From a virus (lineage: Duplodnaviria > Heunggongvirae > Uroviricota > Caudoviricetes): DNA of 64,000 nt. The DNA lies in the IMG/VR virus record IMGVR_UViG_2718218449_000002. One strand, written 5' to 3'. The stretch's first letter is position 1. Each line of letters begins with the position of its first letter. Positions 48,001 to 54,000 of this stretch are shown here, one piece after another. The position numbers are program-made.

Positions 48001-51000
48001 TGAGATTGACAGTACTTTAATGACTGTTGATTTTCCCACAAAACCGCTGAATTTTAAGGCGACAGGAGGATTTGGCTCGGTTCTTCTTGAATGGGATATG
48101 CCTAATTATCGCGGACATTCACTGACTGAAATCTGGCGGGGTACGGAGGATGACCTTGCTGATGCAGTGCTGGTTGCCACGACGCCGGGGCAGGTTTACG
48201 GCGATCCGGTTGACCCTGGCTGGTCGGGATTTTACTGGATACGTTTTGTTAACGCGGCAGGAGTGAAAGGTCCATGGAATGCTGAAAAAGGCACTCAGGC
48301 ACAAACACAGATCGGCGTGAAGGCCATCATTGACCAGATCCGCGATGAGGCTGCAAAGTCGCCGGTTGTGTCCGAGCTGCGTAAAGAAATAAAAAACGCG
48401 CAGGGGCAGGCTGTAAAGGATGCTGCAATTAAGACAACCGAAGTTGTGGGGACTCTCAGGGAAGAAACGACAAGAACGATTGGTGGTATTGAAACCCGCA
48501 TTAGCACACTGGATTCGTCAACCAGTGAATCGCTTAATGAGGTCGACAAGCGCATCACTAAACTGGATAAAGAAGGCGGTGAGGCGTTTCTGGCAATGTG
48601 GTCAAAAAAAGCGGGAGTTGATGGTATCACTGCGGGGATCGGGATTGTCGCCGGAAAAGACAGTGAAGGCAGGCCTGTAAGTCAGGTTGCAATTTCTGCG
48701 TCGCAGTTGTTTGTCTTTGACCCGAACAACCCGGATAACACCGCCTATCCGTTTGCGGTATCAGGTGGCAAGGTTGTGATCCCGAAAGCGATGATTTATG
48801 ACGCGGTGATTGAAACACTGGTGTCGCGGAAGGTTGTGGCGGATGAGGTAAAAGCCGGGGTAAGTATCACTTCGCCAGTTATCCGGAGTGCCGTTATTCA
48901 GAACGGAAACTTTCAGGTTGATTCTCAGGGTAACCTGAATATTGGAGGCCTTTTCAGTGTTACGTCACAAGGGCAACTGACAATTCGTTACTCTAATCAG
49001 AATGTAGGACTGGTGATCCGCAATGATAAAATTGAGGTTTATGATCAGAATGGACGACTGGCTGTTCGCATAGGCAGATTACGCTGATCAGGAGGTGAGT
49101 ATTGGAATACGGTTTTGCCATTTATAACAGAAATAACGTTAATGTTACGGGCGTGTTGACTCCGGTATTTTTCCTGGACAGATTTACAGCGGAGTCTGGC
49201 TCAAAGACGTACACGAATAAACCCGACGGGAAATCATTGCAGGCTGTATGTTGTTTATTTCCCTGGAATAATGTATTTGCGGATCGGAAAGTACCGAAGA
49301 TAACCATTAATGGCAATACGGTGACGTGGTCGAATCTTGAGCAGGGTATGGGATCTTATATTTATACATTCTGGGGATAAGTGTCATGTATGGTTTGAGC
49401 ATTATGAAGCCGGATGGCAGCGTATGGATAAGTCCAGGTTTTACGCCGCAGTGTCTGATCAACAAAGGCACCATACCGGCGACTGAAAAGTCTTTTTTTA
49501 AAACATCAATCCCGTCAGGCAAAAGTTGTTTTTTCTTTATCAGAACAGAGAAGAAGGCCGATGTCATGTACACGCATGAACAGATTGATGGATATCATGC
49601 ACTAAGGCTTCATGTAATTGTCAGGGGAACGAACCCTGGTGTTACGACGGTTTATGCTTTCGCGAATATGGTTACTCCACCTTCTGAGTATGGTATCGCC
49701 ATGTATAACCCGGACGGTGAGATGATTTATCATGGCGAAATGATGCTGCTTGACGCGAAGTTAATACCTGTTGATATCAAATTTGAAAAGGACCTTGGAT
49801 ATCCATGCGCAATCATGCCTGCACTGGTCGGGTATTATAACTGGAAAAGAACTCCTTATGATCGACCGATTTATACCACATCCACTGGTGCTACAGGAAA
49901 TAAAATATATTCCTGTGAGCATTATTCCGGCGGTGCAACATGGGATATTCGAAAGCCGTATATAGATAAGGTCTTGGTTATTAATACATCAGTATATGAT
50001 TAGTTGAAGCGAGTCTTTAATATTCATTTAAAATGTCTAAAAAGATGTATTATTAAAAAGTTTAGCGTGTTATCTGAATACAGGATATCTTAAATGAAGA
50101 GTATAGCAACACTGGTTGTGTGTGCAATCTCCGGGATTGCCTGTGTAAATTTATCTGCACATGCAGCAGAAGGAAACCATACAATTTCTCTGGGGTATGC
50201 GCACTTTCAGTTTCCGGGACTGAAGGATTTTGTAAAGGATGCGACTGCTCATAACAGGGAGACTTTCAGTCATTTCGTCAACAGAAACTACTTTTCTTCA
50301 TTGGGCGAATATACAGATGGTCGGGTCAGTGGATATGAAGGCAAGGATAAAAATCCACAGGGCATTAATATCAGGTATCGCTACGAGATAACGGATGATT
50401 TTGGCGTTATCACCTCTTTTACATGGACGCGTTCTCTCACTAACTCACAGACATTTATTGATGTGCAGTCAGCCGATCATACCAGGAAGATTAAGAATCC
50501 GGCAGCTTCTGCCAGAACGGATATCAGGGCGAATTACTGGAGTCTGTTAGCGGGGCCTTCATGGCGGGTTAATCAGTACATGAGTTTATATGCGATGGCA
50601 GGGATGGGCGTTGCTAAAGTTAGCGCTGACCTGAAAATTAAGGACAATATTAACAGTAGTGGCGGATTTTCTGAAAGCAACAGCACGAAAAAAACCTCCC
50701 TTGCGTGGGCTGCAGGTGCACAGTTTAACCTGAATGAGAGTGTTACACTGGATGTGGCTTACGAAGGTTTCGGCTCTGGCGACTGGCGCACGAGTGGCGT
50801 TACTGCTGGCATTGGCCTGAAATTCTGACCTGTATCCGGTAACCGTTTACTACCCGCTGTGATGGCGGGTTTTTTATTGCCCGTACAGGGCAAAAACCGT
50901 AAATTATGCGTGGGTGCCTTTCGGCTGATGGCTGGAGGGTGAACCTGAAGGCCTGATGTGGAAAGGCCCCGAGTCAACTTAACGTTAACCCGAGGCCCTA

Positions 51001-54000
51001 ACACTTCGTACCTTAAGCAAGTAGAAGGTTAGCGCCTCTCTGTAAAAGGAGTCAAGCGCTATGTCGCAAAAATCGCTTATCACCGTCACAATTTGCATGA
51101 CGGTTATCTTCACCATCTGGATGTTGCACGGTTCACTGTGTGAGTTCCGGCTGAATTTGTGGGGAGCGGAGTTTGCGGCGTTCTTACAGTGTAAGCAGTA
51201 GGAAAACCGCGACGGGGACGAGAGTCCCCGTCAACTGGTTGCTGAGGTTCAGCCGATATGGCACCCGTTTCAGGTGAGAGAATGAACGATAAAATTCTCT
51301 GGTATATGCAGCGTGTTGTGAGAAATTCCCGCAACCCTGAATTTATGAATGAAGTTAAAGACGCCTGCCTTAAAAAGCAGGCGTTTTGTTTTGAGGCACC
51401 TGATGGCTTTTTGGTGCTGCGTTCTGTGCTCAGTGCTGATGGTATCCCTTATGTTCTGGTGTTGCTGGGCGTGTGTACGGGGAGTAACAGCGTTGAGCGT
51501 TACCTGCCGGAGGTGAAGACATTAACCCATCTGGCTGGCGGACGCTGGGCTGAGTTCCATACGGCAAGGCGGGGATTTATCCGGCTGGGAAAACGACTGG
51601 GCTTTGAGCGAATGCCGGATGATGAGGATGGCTTCATGGTGTTCAGGATAGCGGTCTGACTGCTACAGTTTTCATCATTGTGTTTAAACCAACATTGTAA
51701 TTCACATTCTGACCCTGCTCCGGCAGGGTTTTTTGTTATCCAGGGGGCCATTATGGGTGGAAGTAAAGGCGGTGGTGATACCAAAGTAAAACCAACAGCA
51801 GCGCAAATAGCACAGGAAGAAGTGGCCTGGAAAGGGTGGCAGGATTACAAAAATATCCTCCGCCCGGCTGAAGATAACTTCATGGAAAAGGTCGATGACC
51901 TGAACAGTGAGCAGCAGTACGACAATATTGCTGGCACCACAAATCTGGGGTATCAGAAACAGTTTGGCGAAGCACGGAAGGAGCTTGCGGGTAATCTTGC
52001 TCAGTCCGGCGTTGACCCATCCAGTGGTCGTTTTAATGCGGTAATGAATGCGAACCAGAGTGACCAGGTAACCGGGCAGATTGACACAACCACACGGGGG
52101 CAGGTATCGCAGGCAGATAAGTATGTTGCCGGGCTACAGGATGTTGCTGCTCTCGGTTCTGGTCAGAAGGCGGATGCGTTACAGAGTTTTAACTCTCTGG
52201 CAGACAGCAGTCTGGCAAAAGCTAAATCGGATGCACAGGCGGCGTTTACGAAACAGCAGGGGCGAGCCTCTCTTGTTGGCGCTGGTCTGGGTGCGGCAGG
52301 TGCATATGCGATGCATAAGGCTGGCGGTAGCGGAGGAAGTGGCGGTGCTAAAACACCTGGCACCGGCGCTAATGCCATTCAGCATCAGGCTCAGAACTGG
52401 AGACTGTAATTATGGAGTATGGCAAATACGAAACTCTCGCAAGGGCTGGTTATTCAGGAGCAGACCGCCCACAGGGTGACTGGCAGACGTCAGCAGCGCT
52501 GACACGCCAACAATACGACGACTGGCGAACCAGATATTTGCCCCGCGTGGCAAGGCTGGCTGACCTTGGGGAGAACAACAGTCTGATGAATGCACAGCTT
52601 GCACGGGTGGGAGGCCTTGCCACTTCCAGTCTCCGTACAGCGCAGATGGCGCAGGATAACCAGATGGCGAGATACGGGGTAAACCGCCCGGATAATCCCG
52701 ACAGTAATACGCTGGGGTTACGTAATGCCCTGGCAATTGCTGGCGCGAAAAATGGTATCCGTGAAGCCGAACAGGATCGCCAGATGAATATTCTGACGGG
52801 GGCTTCTGCACCGGCAAGACAGAAACTGAGTGTTGGCGGCCAACTGGTGGCAGCGTAAGGGGGCAATATGGGATACGGTTTACTGGATATTGCAAATCAG
52901 TCGCGGCGTGAGGCATTACAGGGAATAAGTGACGCAGACAGACGACGTGAAGAAATTGAGGCTGCGAACAAACAGATGGCGGCGCAACAGAAAGCGCAGA
53001 ACAAGCAGAATATCGGTACGGGCATTGGTACGGGGGCGGCTATTGGCGCATCCGTTGGTGGTCCTGTTGGTGCTGTTGCTGGAGCAGTAATTGGCGGCAT
53101 TGCTGGTTCTTTGTTTTAAGGAGTGGTGAATGAGCGGATTTGCACAGGGGTTACTTGCCGGATTCAGCACCGTTGACCAGGCAATGACCCGTCGTAAGGA
53201 GCTTGGTCTGCGTGAAGCACAGCTTGCCCGGCAACAGAAAAATAACGAGCGCGATTTTGAGTTTGCGCAGTCTCAGTTTGAACATAATAAAAACGTTGAT
53301 CAGCGGAACTTTGATTACAGAGCCAAAGTTGACGACCGTAATTATGCACTGAAGGAGAGGGAGTTTAACGCTAACCAGAATTACCGGAATGCGTCACTGG
53401 GTATGGAGCAGCAGCGACTCCAGTTGCAGAAATACAACCAGCGACGGCTTGAGTATAACGATATGATTGCCCATAGCCAGCCACTAATGGAAGCGCTTGG
53501 AAAAGCAATTGAGGCTGGCGATCAGGAGGCTGCAACGCGTCTGTTCGGGCAGCTGCCAAAGGGACATCCATTAATTCTTATGTCAAACGAAGGCTATGCA
53601 GCGAAAGCGGGTCAGGCCGTGATCAACCTGCAAAAAATCTTTGGTGATAAGCCGGACATGGCGATCGATTCGCTGAATACCCCGGAAAATCTCGATGTGC
53701 TTTCCGGCGTGTTTGCCCCGGAACTACAACAGCGTATTGGCATGCCTGATTCAACCGGGGACAAAACGATAAAAGAGGCCAGGATTGGCAGTATCGTACC
53801 AGCGCAGCAGGAAGGGTACGTACTTATTGGCCTTGATCTCACATACAGCGATGGCTCCACCGCGCATAAACCTGTAACAGAATACGGCAGTGCGCACCCT
53901 GATGATCAAACCGTGCTGGCGATACCCGTTGATAAGGCTATCGCTCAGGTCAGGGATCGCAGCAAATTTGCAGAGATATCGAAAAATTATGGTTATTTTA

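What the first reader, a model, noticed from the sequence alone, without database searches (positions are those of the whole stretch)
50876..51250. Unannotated Hok/Gef-type small toxin ORF with structured leader downstream of lom
A 46-codon ORF (51061..51201), below usual ORF cutoffs, encodes a single-pass membrane peptide with the Hok/Gef signature (…HGSLCEFR…EFAAFL…) behind a strong RBS and a long GC-rich leader with repeated GGCC/CCCGAG stems typical of hok mRNAs. It is bracketed by terminators (50852..50875 and 51713..51734) together with a 133-aa ORF, forming a discrete island in the structural region. An antisense Sok-like RNA may be encoded opposite the leader.
Basis: partly seen in the sequence, partly recalled or inferred. 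Interest (0 to 1): 0.65.

Follow-up and report, generated by a model that had tools for sequence, protein, structure and literature searches.

The report
Second Hok toxin cassette after lom
The 46-codon ORF after lom is a real Hok/Gef membrane-toxin gene with a hok-type folded mRNA and a predicted antisense antidote RNA, but current databases already annotate it, so it is an ordinary and experimentally unstudied member of a well-known toxin-antitoxin family.

Summary
ORF 51061..51201 exists and has an AAGGAG ribosome-binding site. It scores above Pfam's Hok/Gef threshold (33.2 bits against a cut-off of 22). It stays intact at 46-48 codons in 72 of 76 distinct copies of the same ~355-nt cassette.

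The cassette runs from about 50877 to 51266, slightly beyond the finding's coordinates. It has the hallmarks of hok mRNAs:
- The 5' end (50912-28) pairs with the 3' end (51249-66).
- An alternative 5' stem forms with 50961-70.
- Long-range pairs covary.
- Hairpin 50965-97 is more stable on the minus strand in 29 of 29 variants. Next to it is a promoter-like site whose -10 hexamer (TAACCT) is the same as at annotated sokW. Together these predict a ~58-nt Sok-like RNA (51018 to ~50961).

It differs from the textbook system in three ways. It has no mok reading frame. Its leader scores below Rfam's threshold. In Stx phages it has no terminator of its own and runs straight into the 133-aa ORF.

It is not "unannotated". 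The matching phage record (VT2phi_272) and RefSeq E. coli genomes already call it a Hok/MokW-like protein. It is also not the published hokW-sokW locus, which is absent from this window.

Verdict: a known kind, already annotated and never tested experimentally. Interest is low to moderate.

The parts
50852..50876 (+). Intrinsic terminator of lom; upstream boundary of the cassette.
   Evidence: Terminator scan. Similarity between cassette copies in different contexts begins just after it.
50877..50905 (+). Predicted hok promoter: -35 TTGCCC (50877-82), 17-nt spacer, -10 TAAATT (50900-05). It matches 8 of 12 consensus positions, below the scan's threshold.
   Evidence: Read from the sequence. 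A -10-like hexamer (TAGATT, TACATT, TAGAAT; TATAAT in hokC) sits at the same distance from GGGTGC in copies from unrelated contexts. The consensus scan did not report it.
50912..51266 (+). Minimal hok-type mRNA. The 5' end is predicted at about 50912 (GGGUGCC...). The 3' end is undefined here and may extend to the hairpin at 51358-87 or to the terminator at 51711-30.
   Evidence: The Rfam sok/hok-leader model aligns over positions 1-157 starting at 50912. Cassette homology runs from 50877 to 51266 in six other loci. Fold.
50912..50928 (+). 5' element (tac-like): GGGUGCC UU UCGGCUGA. It pairs either with 51249-66 or with 50961-70.
   Evidence: MFE folds. Pairing across 69 relatives: 97.7% and 78.4% of cells for the two stems with 51249-66, and 99.5-99.8% with 50961-70.
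50961..51018 (-). Predicted Sok-like antisense RNA of about 58 nt, transcribed from 51018 towards 50961. It has a 5' single-stranded tail of about 20 nt followed by a 14-16-bp hairpin and UUUCC.
   Evidence: Same architecture as annotated sokC and sokW. The hairpin is more stable on the minus strand in 29 of 29 variants. No expression data.
50965..50997 (-). Terminator/stability hairpin of the predicted antisense RNA. This is the GGCC/CCCGAG 'repeat' of the finding.
   Evidence: 92.7% of cells paired on the antisense strand against 79.5% on the sense strand, because G-U pairs on one strand become C-A mismatches on the other. Mean MFE -23.4 against -14.2 kcal/mol.
51026..51055 (-). Predicted promoter of the antisense RNA: -35 TTGACT (51055 to 51050), 18-nt spacer, -10 TAACCT (51031 to 51026), start near 51018.
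   Evidence: The -10 hexamer and layout are the same as upstream of the sokW feature annotated in 933W (TTGCCT-17-TAACCT-6-G); Takada et al. lowered sokW's antitoxic effect by mutating its -10 region (PMC8621323). Similar layout at sokC. Below the consensus-scan threshold.
51031..51060 (+). Hairpin that sequesters the hok Shine-Dalgarno sequence: 51031-35 with 51056-60, and 51038-41 with 51048-51.
   Evidence: Present in the MFE fold of the full-length RNA and of the antisense-bound RNA, and opened in the 3'-truncated RNA. Outer stem paired in 100% of cells, inner stem in 91%; part of it was fixed by the search pattern.
51046..51051 (+). Shine-Dalgarno sequence AAGGAG of hok.
   Evidence: Sequence.
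51061..51201 (+). hok-family toxin ORF, 46 aa. Predicted transmembrane helix at residues 6-22 and a C-terminal SLCE...AAFLQCK domain.
   Evidence: Pfam HOK_GEF 33.2 bits. PHROG 251. 45% identity to K-12 HokA, and mean Kyte-Doolittle hydropathy of 2.32 for residues 6-22. Annotated as such.
51211..51232 (+). Conserved 3'-UTR hairpin (9 bp).
   Evidence: 98.6-99.8% of cells paired, with compensatory GC-to-AU changes at 4-5 of 9 pairs.
51235..51248 (+). 3' element that pairs with 51010-51024, the target of the antisense RNA's 5' tail, in the full-length mRNA.
   Evidence: MFE fold. Covarying pairs 51023-51236 (GC 55, AU 6) and 51024-51235 (AU 41, GC 18).
51249..51266 (+). fbi-like 3' element (UCAGCCGA UAU GGCACCC) that pairs with the mRNA 5' end. 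It overlaps the first ATG (51258) of the 133-aa ORF.
   Evidence: Cassette homology ends here.
51282..51659 (+). Downstream ORF of unknown function (PHROG 610): 125 aa from ATG 51282, or 133 aa from ATG 51258. By gene order it is probably Sp5 'ORF75', which was not among the genes found essential. It is not part of the mobile hok cassette.
   Evidence: The PHROG 610 match starts at residue 9. NC_028656 annotates the second ATG. It follows the cassette only in the lom context. Essentiality from PMC5155283.
51711..51735 (+). First strong intrinsic terminator downstream; a possible end of a hok-ORF133 transcript.
   Evidence: Terminator scan.

Best explanation
The locus is a type I toxin-antitoxin cassette of the hok/sok kind. 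It belongs to a HokA-like, 46-aa subfamily that lacks mok, and it is carried as a moron in the late region of an Stx2 phage.

Shown here:
- The ORF is a Hok/Gef-family single-pass membrane peptide.
- The ~355-nt cassette is a conserved mobile unit.
- Its RNA has conserved, partly covarying 5'-3' end pairing, an alternative 5' stem, and a hairpin that is selected on the antisense strand next to a sokW-like promoter.

Inferred, by analogy with hok/sok of plasmid R1 (from established knowledge):
- A weak promoter makes a stable mRNA starting at about 50912.
- In the full-length RNA, the 5' end pairs with 51249-66 and 51010-24 pairs with 51235-48. This keeps both the ribosome-binding site and the antisense target closed.
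- Slow 3' trimming lets the 5' end re-pair with 50961-70, which opens the leader.
- A short, unstable antisense RNA (51018 to about 50961) then binds 43-100 nt upstream of the start codon.
- There is no mok to block. The antisense RNA therefore most likely acts by triggering RNase III cleavage, by letting the SD-sequestering hairpin (51031-60) re-form, or both.
- When the antisense RNA is lost, the peptide inserts into the inner membrane and depolarises or kills the cell. Loss could follow loss of the prophage, a block of transcription, or late transcription running against the antisense promoter after induction.

The biological role is not resolved. Candidates are prophage maintenance, help with lysis (as shown for hokW), and exclusion of other phages.
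For: Family membership:
- Pfam HOK_GEF above the gathering score and PHROG 251.
- 45% identity to K-12 HokA and 36% to HokW; transmembrane segment at residues 6-22.
- ORF kept intact in 72 of 76 distinct copies with 23 protein variants.

Mobile cassette:
- The same cassette, with its promoter-like sites and end elements, sits in unrelated contexts: after P2 ogr, after lom, and in other islands.

RNA structure:
- MFE folds reproduce the hok paradigm, with end pairing in the full-length RNA and a 5' stem with 50961-70 after 3' truncation.
- On 73 aligned copies the proposed structure has 90.5% of cells paired, against 32-47% when the partners are slid by 1-3 columns. It has 126 double-change cells against 11-24, and 0 of 500 shuffles reach the observed values.
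- The Rfam hok-leader model aligns over its full length from 50912 to the hok start, E = 9e-6.

Antisense RNA:
- The hairpin is more stable on the minus strand in 29 of 29 variants and has 92.7% against 79.5% of cells paired.
- The promoter layout and the TAACCT -10 hexamer match those upstream of the sokW feature annotated in 933W; Takada et al. mutated the sokW -10 region (PMC8621323).
- Length and shape match annotated sokC.

Translation control:
- Predicted probability of being unpaired for SD/AUG is 0.32/0.24 in the full-length RNA, 0.47/0.56 after truncation, and 0.32/0.23 after truncation with the antisense RNA bound.
- The same direction is seen in most of 34 relatives.
Against: - There are no expression or toxicity data for this locus. 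No paper in the held library treats it.
- No mok: no ATG-, GTG- or TTG-initiated frame reads into or abuts hok. The textbook coupling mechanism therefore cannot apply.
- The leader scores 35.6 bits against Rfam's gathering score of 59, while hokC and hokW score 118 and 113.5.
- Both promoters fall below the consensus-scan threshold.
- In this context there is no terminator after the 3' pairing element, so the real 3' end, and with it the 3'-processing step, is uncertain.
- The accessibility differences are small across relatives: mean unpaired probability over -20..+15 of 0.38, 0.44 and 0.41.
- The 5' element hardly varies, so its pairing is supported mainly by conservation and one-sided changes.
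- Alignment A1 contains three chance pattern matches.
- Several leader positions were fixed by the search pattern.
Confidence: 0.8

Rival explanations
1. The peptide is a phage lysis helper expressed from the late transcript, not a classical addiction module. The cassette lies in the late operon on the same strand, so Q-antiterminated late transcription would read through the lom terminator. That would make hok-sense RNA and collide with the antisense promoter. Hok would then appear after induction and speed up lysis, as reported for hokW-sokW. In this reading the antisense RNA only silences leakage during lysogeny.
For: - The cassette has the same orientation as the flanking late genes and no terminator of its own before ORF133.
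- For the paralogous hokW-sokW of Sp5, the antisense RNA disappears and HokW is made after mitomycin C in a RecA-dependent way, and deleting the locus halves phage release (PMC8621323).
- That deletion phenotype was only partial. 933W and VT2-Sakai carry both hok loci, which would fit redundancy.
Against: - Nothing was measured for this locus.
- The same cassette is most often found at the end of P2-like prophages, behind ogr and with its own terminator (87 of 134 copies). Late read-through of this kind is not obvious there.
- This reading concerns the biological role. It is compatible with the type I toxin-antitoxin mechanism rather than excluding it.
Confidence: 0.3
2. The locus is a silent relic: a hok homologue that is no longer expressed or no longer toxic, as is thought for several chromosomal hok loci of E. 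coli K-12 that are disrupted by insertion sequences.
For: - mok is missing.
- The leader scores below the Rfam threshold.
- Both promoters are weak matches to the consensus.
- K-12 hokA and hokC have IS elements next to them.
Against: - The ORF length and the Hok motifs are kept across 23 protein variants.
- RNA pairs covary.
- The antisense hairpin is maintained through G-U-specific changes in 29 of 29 variants.
- The cassette has spread intact into several kinds of prophage and occurs in 1675 of 5426 complete E. coli genomes.
- These are signs of ongoing selection on the whole unit.
Confidence: 0.08
3. A Hok toxin gene with a structured, self-regulating mRNA but no antisense RNA. The minus-strand hairpin would be only the mirror image of a sense-strand structure.
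For: - There is no direct evidence of a minus-strand transcript.
- The promoter is sub-threshold in the scan.
Against: - The hairpin is systematically weaker on the sense strand: C-A mismatches where the antisense strand has G-U, and -14.2 against -23.4 kcal/mol.
- The -35/-10 layout and the TAACCT hexamer coincide with those upstream of annotated sokW.
- The MFE fold of the sense strand does not use this hairpin fully.
Confidence: 0.07

Closest known systems
hokW-mokW-sokW of Stx2 phages 933W and Sp5 (annotated in AF125520 at 58460-58734; tested by Takada et al. 2021, PMC8621323)
   Same: - Hok-family toxin carried by an Stx phage.
- Antisense RNA promoter with the same TAACCT -10 hexamer and the same -35/-10/+1 layout.
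- Antisense RNA made of a 5' tail plus a long hairpin.
- mRNA starting with GGGUGC.
   Different: - It is a different locus about 13 kb away in 933W, on the other strand, and it is absent from this window.
- HokW has 51 aa, is HokC/RelF-like, and is 36% identical to this peptide.
- The two cassettes are 47% identical in DNA.
- hokW has an in-frame mokW extension and this locus has none.
- The 5' tails of the two antisense RNAs differ, so cross-regulation is unlikely (inference).
- hokW scores 113.5 bits with Rfam RF01794, against 35.6 here.
hok/sok/mok (parB) of plasmid R1, the paradigm type I toxin-antitoxin system (from established knowledge and PMC8621323)
   Same: - Small membrane toxin.
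- 5'-3' end pairing (tac/fbi) in the full-length mRNA and an alternative 5' stem after 3' trimming.
- A cis-antisense RNA of about 60 nt opposite the leader, with its -35 region next to the hok ribosome-binding site.
   Different: - No mok ORF, so there is no translational coupling for the antisense RNA to block.
- The toxin is shorter (46 aa against 52 aa).
- Here the cassette sits in a phage late region with no terminator after fbi.
- The R1 sequence was not fetched, so detailed comparisons with it rest on memory and are only leads.
hokA (and the mokA pseudogene) of E. coli K-12
   Same: It is the closest characterised protein: 45% identity over 40 residues, and it is the best NCBIfam hit (HokA, 38.4 bits). 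It shares the ...FTxWMxxxSLCE...AAFLxCK pattern.
   Different: - The score is below the HokA equivalog cut-off of 89 bits, so this is not an orthologue.
- The K-12 leader is interrupted by IS150 32 nt upstream of hokA and does not align with this cassette.
hokC (gef)/mokC/sokC of E. coli K-12
   Same: - The leader aligns from GGGTGC through the AAAGCCCCGAG...CCGAGGCC hairpin.
- sokC (59 nt) has the same tail-plus-hairpin shape and the same promoter layout.
   Different: - mokC is present as a 19-codon in-frame extension.
- The protein is only 27% identical.
- Rfam score is 118 bits, against 35.6 here.

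Membership tests
Hok/Gef toxin family (Pfam PF01848) | Match to the family HMM at or above the curated gathering score. | tested here: met
   33.2 bits against 22, E = 4e-8, model positions 6-42 of 42. PHROG 251 'MokW-like host killing', E = 2.8e-24.
Hok/Gef toxin family (Pfam PF01848) | Peptide of about 50 aa with one N-terminal transmembrane helix and a polar C-terminal part carrying the conserved (S/D)LCE motif. | tested here: met
   46 aa. Residues 6-22 (LITVTICMTVIFTIWML) have mean Kyte-Doolittle hydropathy of 2.32. SLCE lies at residues 25-28 and aligns with HokA, HokW and HokC.
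Hok/Gef toxin family (Pfam PF01848) | Kills or depolarises cells when expressed. | not testable with these tools
   Needs inducible expression. No published test of this ORF was found.
HokA orthologues (NCBIfam NF007290, equivalog) | Score at or above the equivalog cut-off. | tested here: not met
   38.4 bits against a cut-off of 89. HokA-like, but not HokA.
hok/sok-type type I toxin-antitoxin locus (R1 parB paradigm) | A cis-encoded antisense RNA opposite the hok leader, with its own promoter and a terminator hairpin. | tested here: met
   In silico only. The hairpin is favoured on the antisense strand in 29 of 29 variants and has 92.7% against 79.5% of cells paired. The promoter layout and TAACCT -10 match those upstream of annotated sokW, and the layout is similar at sokC. 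Transcription was not tested.
hok/sok-type type I toxin-antitoxin locus (R1 parB paradigm) | Pairing of the mRNA 5' end with its 3' end (tac/fbi), and an alternative 5' stem once the 3' end is removed. | tested here: met
   MFE folds. Cells paired: 97.6-97.7% for 50912-18/51260-66 and 99.5-99.8% for the alternative stem. Whole structure 90.5% paired against 32-47% in slid controls, and 0 of 500 shuffles reach the observed values.
hok/sok-type type I toxin-antitoxin locus (R1 parB paradigm) | A mok reading frame that overlaps hok and whose translation is required for hok translation. | tested here: not met
   In the window all three frames have a stop within 44 nt upstream of the hok ATG, and none has an ATG, GTG or TTG start. 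No such frame is conserved in six relatives. hokW and hokC do have one.
hok/sok-type type I toxin-antitoxin locus (R1 parB paradigm) | Match to Rfam RF01794 ('sok'), which in practice models the hok-sense leader. | tested here: not met
   35.6 bits against a gathering score of 59, with E = 9e-6 and full model coverage. A relative, L007, scores 42.7; hokC scores 118.3 and hokW 113.5, all on the hok-sense strand.
hok/sok-type type I toxin-antitoxin locus (R1 parB paradigm) | Stable toxin mRNA and unstable antisense RNA, 3' exonucleolytic activation, and RNase III cleavage of the duplex. | not testable with these tools
   Needs rifampicin chase, 3' RACE, and rnc and pnp mutants.
hokW-sokW locus of Sp5/933W | Being the same locus that Takada et al. 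2021 characterised. | tested here: not met
   The paper's primers and the HokW sequence are absent from the window. hokW lies at 933W positions 58460-58734. The two cassettes are 47% identical.

The most novel reading that the evidence does not exclude
This 46-aa subfamily would be a naturally mok-less hok system. Its antisense RNA binds 43-100 nt upstream of the start codon and represses hok at a distance. It would do so by letting an SD-sequestering hairpin re-form, by RNase III cleavage, or both, rather than by blocking translation of a coupled leader frame.

In Stx phages the cassette has also lost its own terminator, so the 3' end that must be trimmed for activation belongs to a hok-ORF133 transcript.

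In 933W and Sp5 this locus would be a second, overlooked Hok system. It could explain why deleting hokW-sokW gave only a partial phenotype.
Probability: 0.3. Interest if true: 0.4.

Novelty: already known. Interest (0 to 1): 0.22.

Why it matters
Little changes for the field. Hok/Sok systems are textbook. A 2010 survey counted 14 Hok/Gef genes in O157 Sakai (PMC2887945). This ORF is already named in current annotation.

Three modest points remain:
- Stx2 phages such as 933W and VT2-Sakai carry two different hok cassettes, and only hokW-sokW has been tested. Single-deletion phenotypes for lysis timing and phage release may therefore understate what Hok toxins contribute.
- The cassette is a compact mobile moron shared by P2-like and Stx prophages, and related DNA is present in about 31% of complete E. 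coli genomes.
- This subfamily keeps the end-pairing and the antisense elements but has no mok. That offers a natural test of how antisense control of hok can work without translational coupling.

Tried and rejected
- Identity with hokW-sokW: rejected. I first assumed the locus was the published hokW-sokW. The paper's primers and the HokW sequence are not in the window, and hokW lies elsewhere in 933W.
- hokW just past the window end: wrong. I inferred this from colinearity with 933W. The window is the last 64 kb of VT2phi_272 and ends at attR, with no hokW.
- Search for mok: none found as an in-frame extension, as an overlapping frame, or as a short abutting frame.
- The pattern scan of genome contigs gave only 7 loci, 3 of them chance matches in unrelated MAGs. 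The viral-contig scan was productive.
- The consensus promoter scan found no promoter on either strand. Promoter calls therefore rest on homology with sokW and sokC and on conservation of position.
- Literature searches for this locus, for hok in P2-like phages, and for mok-less hok systems found nothing relevant.
- The first all-sequence accessibility run was killed by the sandbox. It was repeated on 34 diverse copies, where the effect proved small.
- NCBIfam and Pfam gave nothing for the 133-aa ORF. Only PHROG 610, of unknown function, matched.

Full report
**What the window is.** The region 50800-51800 is 100% identical to many Stx-converting phages, including 933W and VT2-Sakai. The last 2.5 kb of the window matches the end of phage VT2phi_272 (HQ424691/NC_028656) up to attR, with a constant offset of 1955. 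The window is therefore the last 64 kb of that phage. The finding lies in the late region, just after lom. By gene order this is a block of genes that Mondal et al. did not find essential in Sp5 (PMC5155283). Their ORF numbers were matched to the window by gene order, which is an inference.

**Checking the observation.**
- The 46-codon ORF (51061..51201), its AAGGAG site 9 nt upstream, the quoted peptide motifs, the GGCCCCGAG/CCCGAGGCC elements, both terminator-like hairpins and the 133-aa ORF are all present.
- The peptide passes Pfam's curated Hok/Gef threshold: 33.2 bits against 22, E = 4e-8, covering nearly the whole model. It also matches PHROG 251.
- Its best NCBIfam hit is HokA, but well below the equivalog cut-off.
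- It is 45% identical to K-12 HokA, 36% to HokW and 27% to HokC. Residues 6-22 form a strongly hydrophobic segment.
- The ORF is not a chance reading frame. Among 76 distinct copies of the surrounding cassette collected from viral and genome contigs, 72 keep an intact 46-48-codon ORF with 23 different protein sequences. Three of the four exceptions are chance matches to the search pattern.

**It is annotated, and it is not hokW.**
- The 1999 933W record jumps from lom to L0129 and omits the ORF.
- The record that matches the window annotates exactly this ORF (53016..53156 = window 51061..51201) as 'MokW-like host killing'.
- A 2025 phage record does the same.
- RefSeq E. coli genomes call it 'Hok/Gef family protein', WP_000078907.1.
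- DNA similar to the cassette occurs in 1675 of 5426 complete E. coli genomes.
- A 2010 survey already counted 14 Hok/Gef genes in O157 Sakai (PMC2887945).
- The one experimental paper on a hok locus of an Stx phage (Takada et al. 2021, PMC8621323) concerns hokW-sokW. HokW has 51 aa and is HokC/RelF-like. Its primers and sequence are absent from the window. In 933W it is annotated at 58460-58734 on the other strand.
- Phages 933W and VT2-Sakai therefore carry two hok cassettes, only one of which has been studied. The phage of this window has only the lom-proximal one within the 64 kb.

**Anatomy of the cassette.** I aligned the window with six E. coli loci at 80-87% identity. These come from different contexts: after lom, after ogr at the end of P2-like prophages, and in other islands.
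- Similarity begins at a -35-like TTGCCC (50877) and ends at GGCACCC (51266).
- A -10-like hexamer (TAAATT here) keeps its distance from GGGTGCC in all copies, which places the mRNA start at about 50912.
- The Rfam family named 'sok' (RF01794) aligns over its full length from 50912 to the hok start on the plus strand.
- Control searches on annotated hokC/sokC and hokW/sokW show that this model actually describes the hok-sense leader. They score 118 and 113.5 bits, whereas this cassette scores 35.6 and a relative 42.7, below the gathering score of 59. The leader is a divergent relative of the canonical one.

**RNA structure.** Folding 50912-51270 gives the classic hok picture:
- The 5' end (50912-18 and 50921-28) pairs with the 3' end (51260-66 and 51249-56).
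- 51010-24 pairs with 51235-48.
- The Shine-Dalgarno sequence sits in a small hairpin (51031-60).
- A 9-bp hairpin lies at 51211-32.
- After removal of the last ~35 nt, the 5' end instead pairs with 50961-70 and the leader refolds.

On 73 aligned copies the full-length structure has 90.5% of cells paired, against 32-47% when the partners are slid by 1-3 columns. It has 126 double-change cells against 11-24, and none of 500 shuffles reaches the observed values. Clear compensatory changes occur in the 3' hairpin and at 51023-51236 and 51024-51235. The 5' element itself hardly varies, as expected for a segment with two alternative partners, so its pairing rests on conservation and on G-U-compatible changes. 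Two caveats apply: the alignment contains three chance matches, and some leader positions were fixed by the search pattern.

**The antisense RNA.** Four observations support it.
Several positions are G-U on the minus strand and hence C-A on the plus strand.
- All 29 distinct variants fold more stably on the minus strand, with mean energies of -23.4 against -14.2 kcal/mol.
- Upstream on the minus strand lies TTGACT-18 nt-TAACCT-7 nt-G. The sokW feature annotated in 933W is preceded by TTGCCT-17-TAACCT-6-G, and sokC has the same layout. Takada et al. lowered sokW's antitoxic effect by mutating its -10 region.
- The predicted RNA (51018 to about 50961, ~58 nt) has a ~20-nt tail and a 14-16-bp hairpin followed by UUUCC, like sokC at 59 nt.

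Its tail differs from that of sokW, so cross-talk is unlikely; this is an inference. Transcription itself could not be tested.

**Differences from the paradigm.**
- There is no mok. Every frame is closed within 44 nt upstream of the hok ATG and has no ATG, GTG or TTG start. No such frame is conserved in relatives. hokC and hokW both carry in-frame mok extensions.
- The antisense target lies 43-100 nt upstream of the start codon, too far for direct occlusion of the ribosome-binding site.
- A thermodynamic model suggests one way this could work. The SD and AUG are less paired in the truncated RNA (unpaired probability 0.47 and 0.56) than in the full-length RNA (0.32 and 0.24). Blocking the antisense target restores the closed state (0.32 and 0.23) by re-forming the SD hairpin.
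- Across 34 diverse relatives the direction holds in most (32 of 34 and 25 of 34), but the effect is small. I treat this as a hypothesis only. RNase III cleavage, as in R1, is an equally plausible route.
- Of 134 cassette copies, 87 follow ogr. Where the downstream sequence is available, most copies have their own intrinsic terminator about 20 nt after GGCACCC. The 10 of 11 copies that follow lom have none and run straight into the 133-aa ORF.
- The first ATG of that ORF (51258) lies inside the 3' pairing element. PHROG 610 and NC_028656 both point to the second ATG, 51282.
- The true 3' end of the hok transcript in this phage is therefore open. Candidates are a strong hairpin with a T-run inside the ORF (51358-87) and the terminator at 51711-30.

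**Likely function.** The molecular reading, a type I toxin-antitoxin cassette of the hok/sok kind, is well supported by sequence, structure and comparison. I put it at about 0.8. The remaining doubt is whether both RNAs are made and whether the peptide is toxic.

The biological role is open. The cassette lies in the late operon and in the same orientation, so Q-dependent late transcription should read through it and oppose the antisense promoter. That would fit a lysis-helper role like the one shown for hokW, but this is inference. Prophage maintenance and exclusion of other phages are equally possible.

**Novelty.** The family, the mechanism and even this ORF's annotation are known. What I did not find described is this particular locus, its lack of mok, and its fusion to the downstream ORF in Stx phages. 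These are minor variants of a known kind, so interest is low to moderate.

Noticed in passing
window 51358-51387 (inside the 133-aa ORF): An 11-bp hairpin (AAAGACGCCUGC...GCAGGCGUUUU) followed by GUUUUG. The terminator scan flags it on both strands. It could be an internal or attenuating terminator for a hok-ORF133 transcript. The stem is identical in the three sequence variants available, so conservation is uninformative.
   Followed up: partly
L007:1553-1620 and equivalent positions in other P2-like copies, compared with window 51276-51300: In copies that carry their own terminator, the stretch after GGCACCC reads ACATGAACAACAAAC..., which resembles the start of the 133-aa ORF (GAGAATGAACGATAAAA). 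It opens a 7-codon frame that ends in the terminator. This may be a remnant showing that one context derives from the other.
   Followed up: no
L034 (matches at 4430 and 5154) and L111 (cassettes at 5540-5905 and 5998-6363): Two viral contigs carry two copies of the hok cassette in tandem, 724 and 458 nt apart. The copies differ in sequence.
   Followed up: no
window 30494-30610 (-) and 45445-45561 (+): Two identical-scoring ALIL pseudoknot matches (the frameshift element of IS3-family insertion sequences) in opposite orientation. This implies two copies of the same IS inside the prophage, one of them in the late region about 5.5 kb upstream of the finding.
   Followed up: no
window 2164-2346 (-) and 14119-14306 (-): Two copies of a C4 antisense RNA plus isrK pair (Rfam RF01695 and RF01394), about 12 kb apart on the same strand.
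   Followed up: no
window 23915-24163 (+) and 25572-25831: Three tRNA genes, then STnc100 (207.7 bits) directly abutting AsxR (anti-stx2 sRNA) on the opposite strand. This is the expected sRNA cluster of the Stx2 region.
   Followed up: no
933W record AF125520 58460-58734 (L139); not in the window: hokW, mokW and sokW are annotated in 933W, but this phage's right end (window 61500-64000, ending at attR) lacks them. Related Stx2 phages therefore differ in carrying one or two hok cassettes.
   Followed up: partly
window 50912-51074, and L003 and L139: Rfam RF01794 is named 'sok antitoxin', but it matches the hok-sense strand from the mRNA 5' end to the hok start at annotated hokC/sokC and hokW/sokW. 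Strand calls taken from this family point to the toxin mRNA leader, not to the antitoxin.
   Followed up: yes
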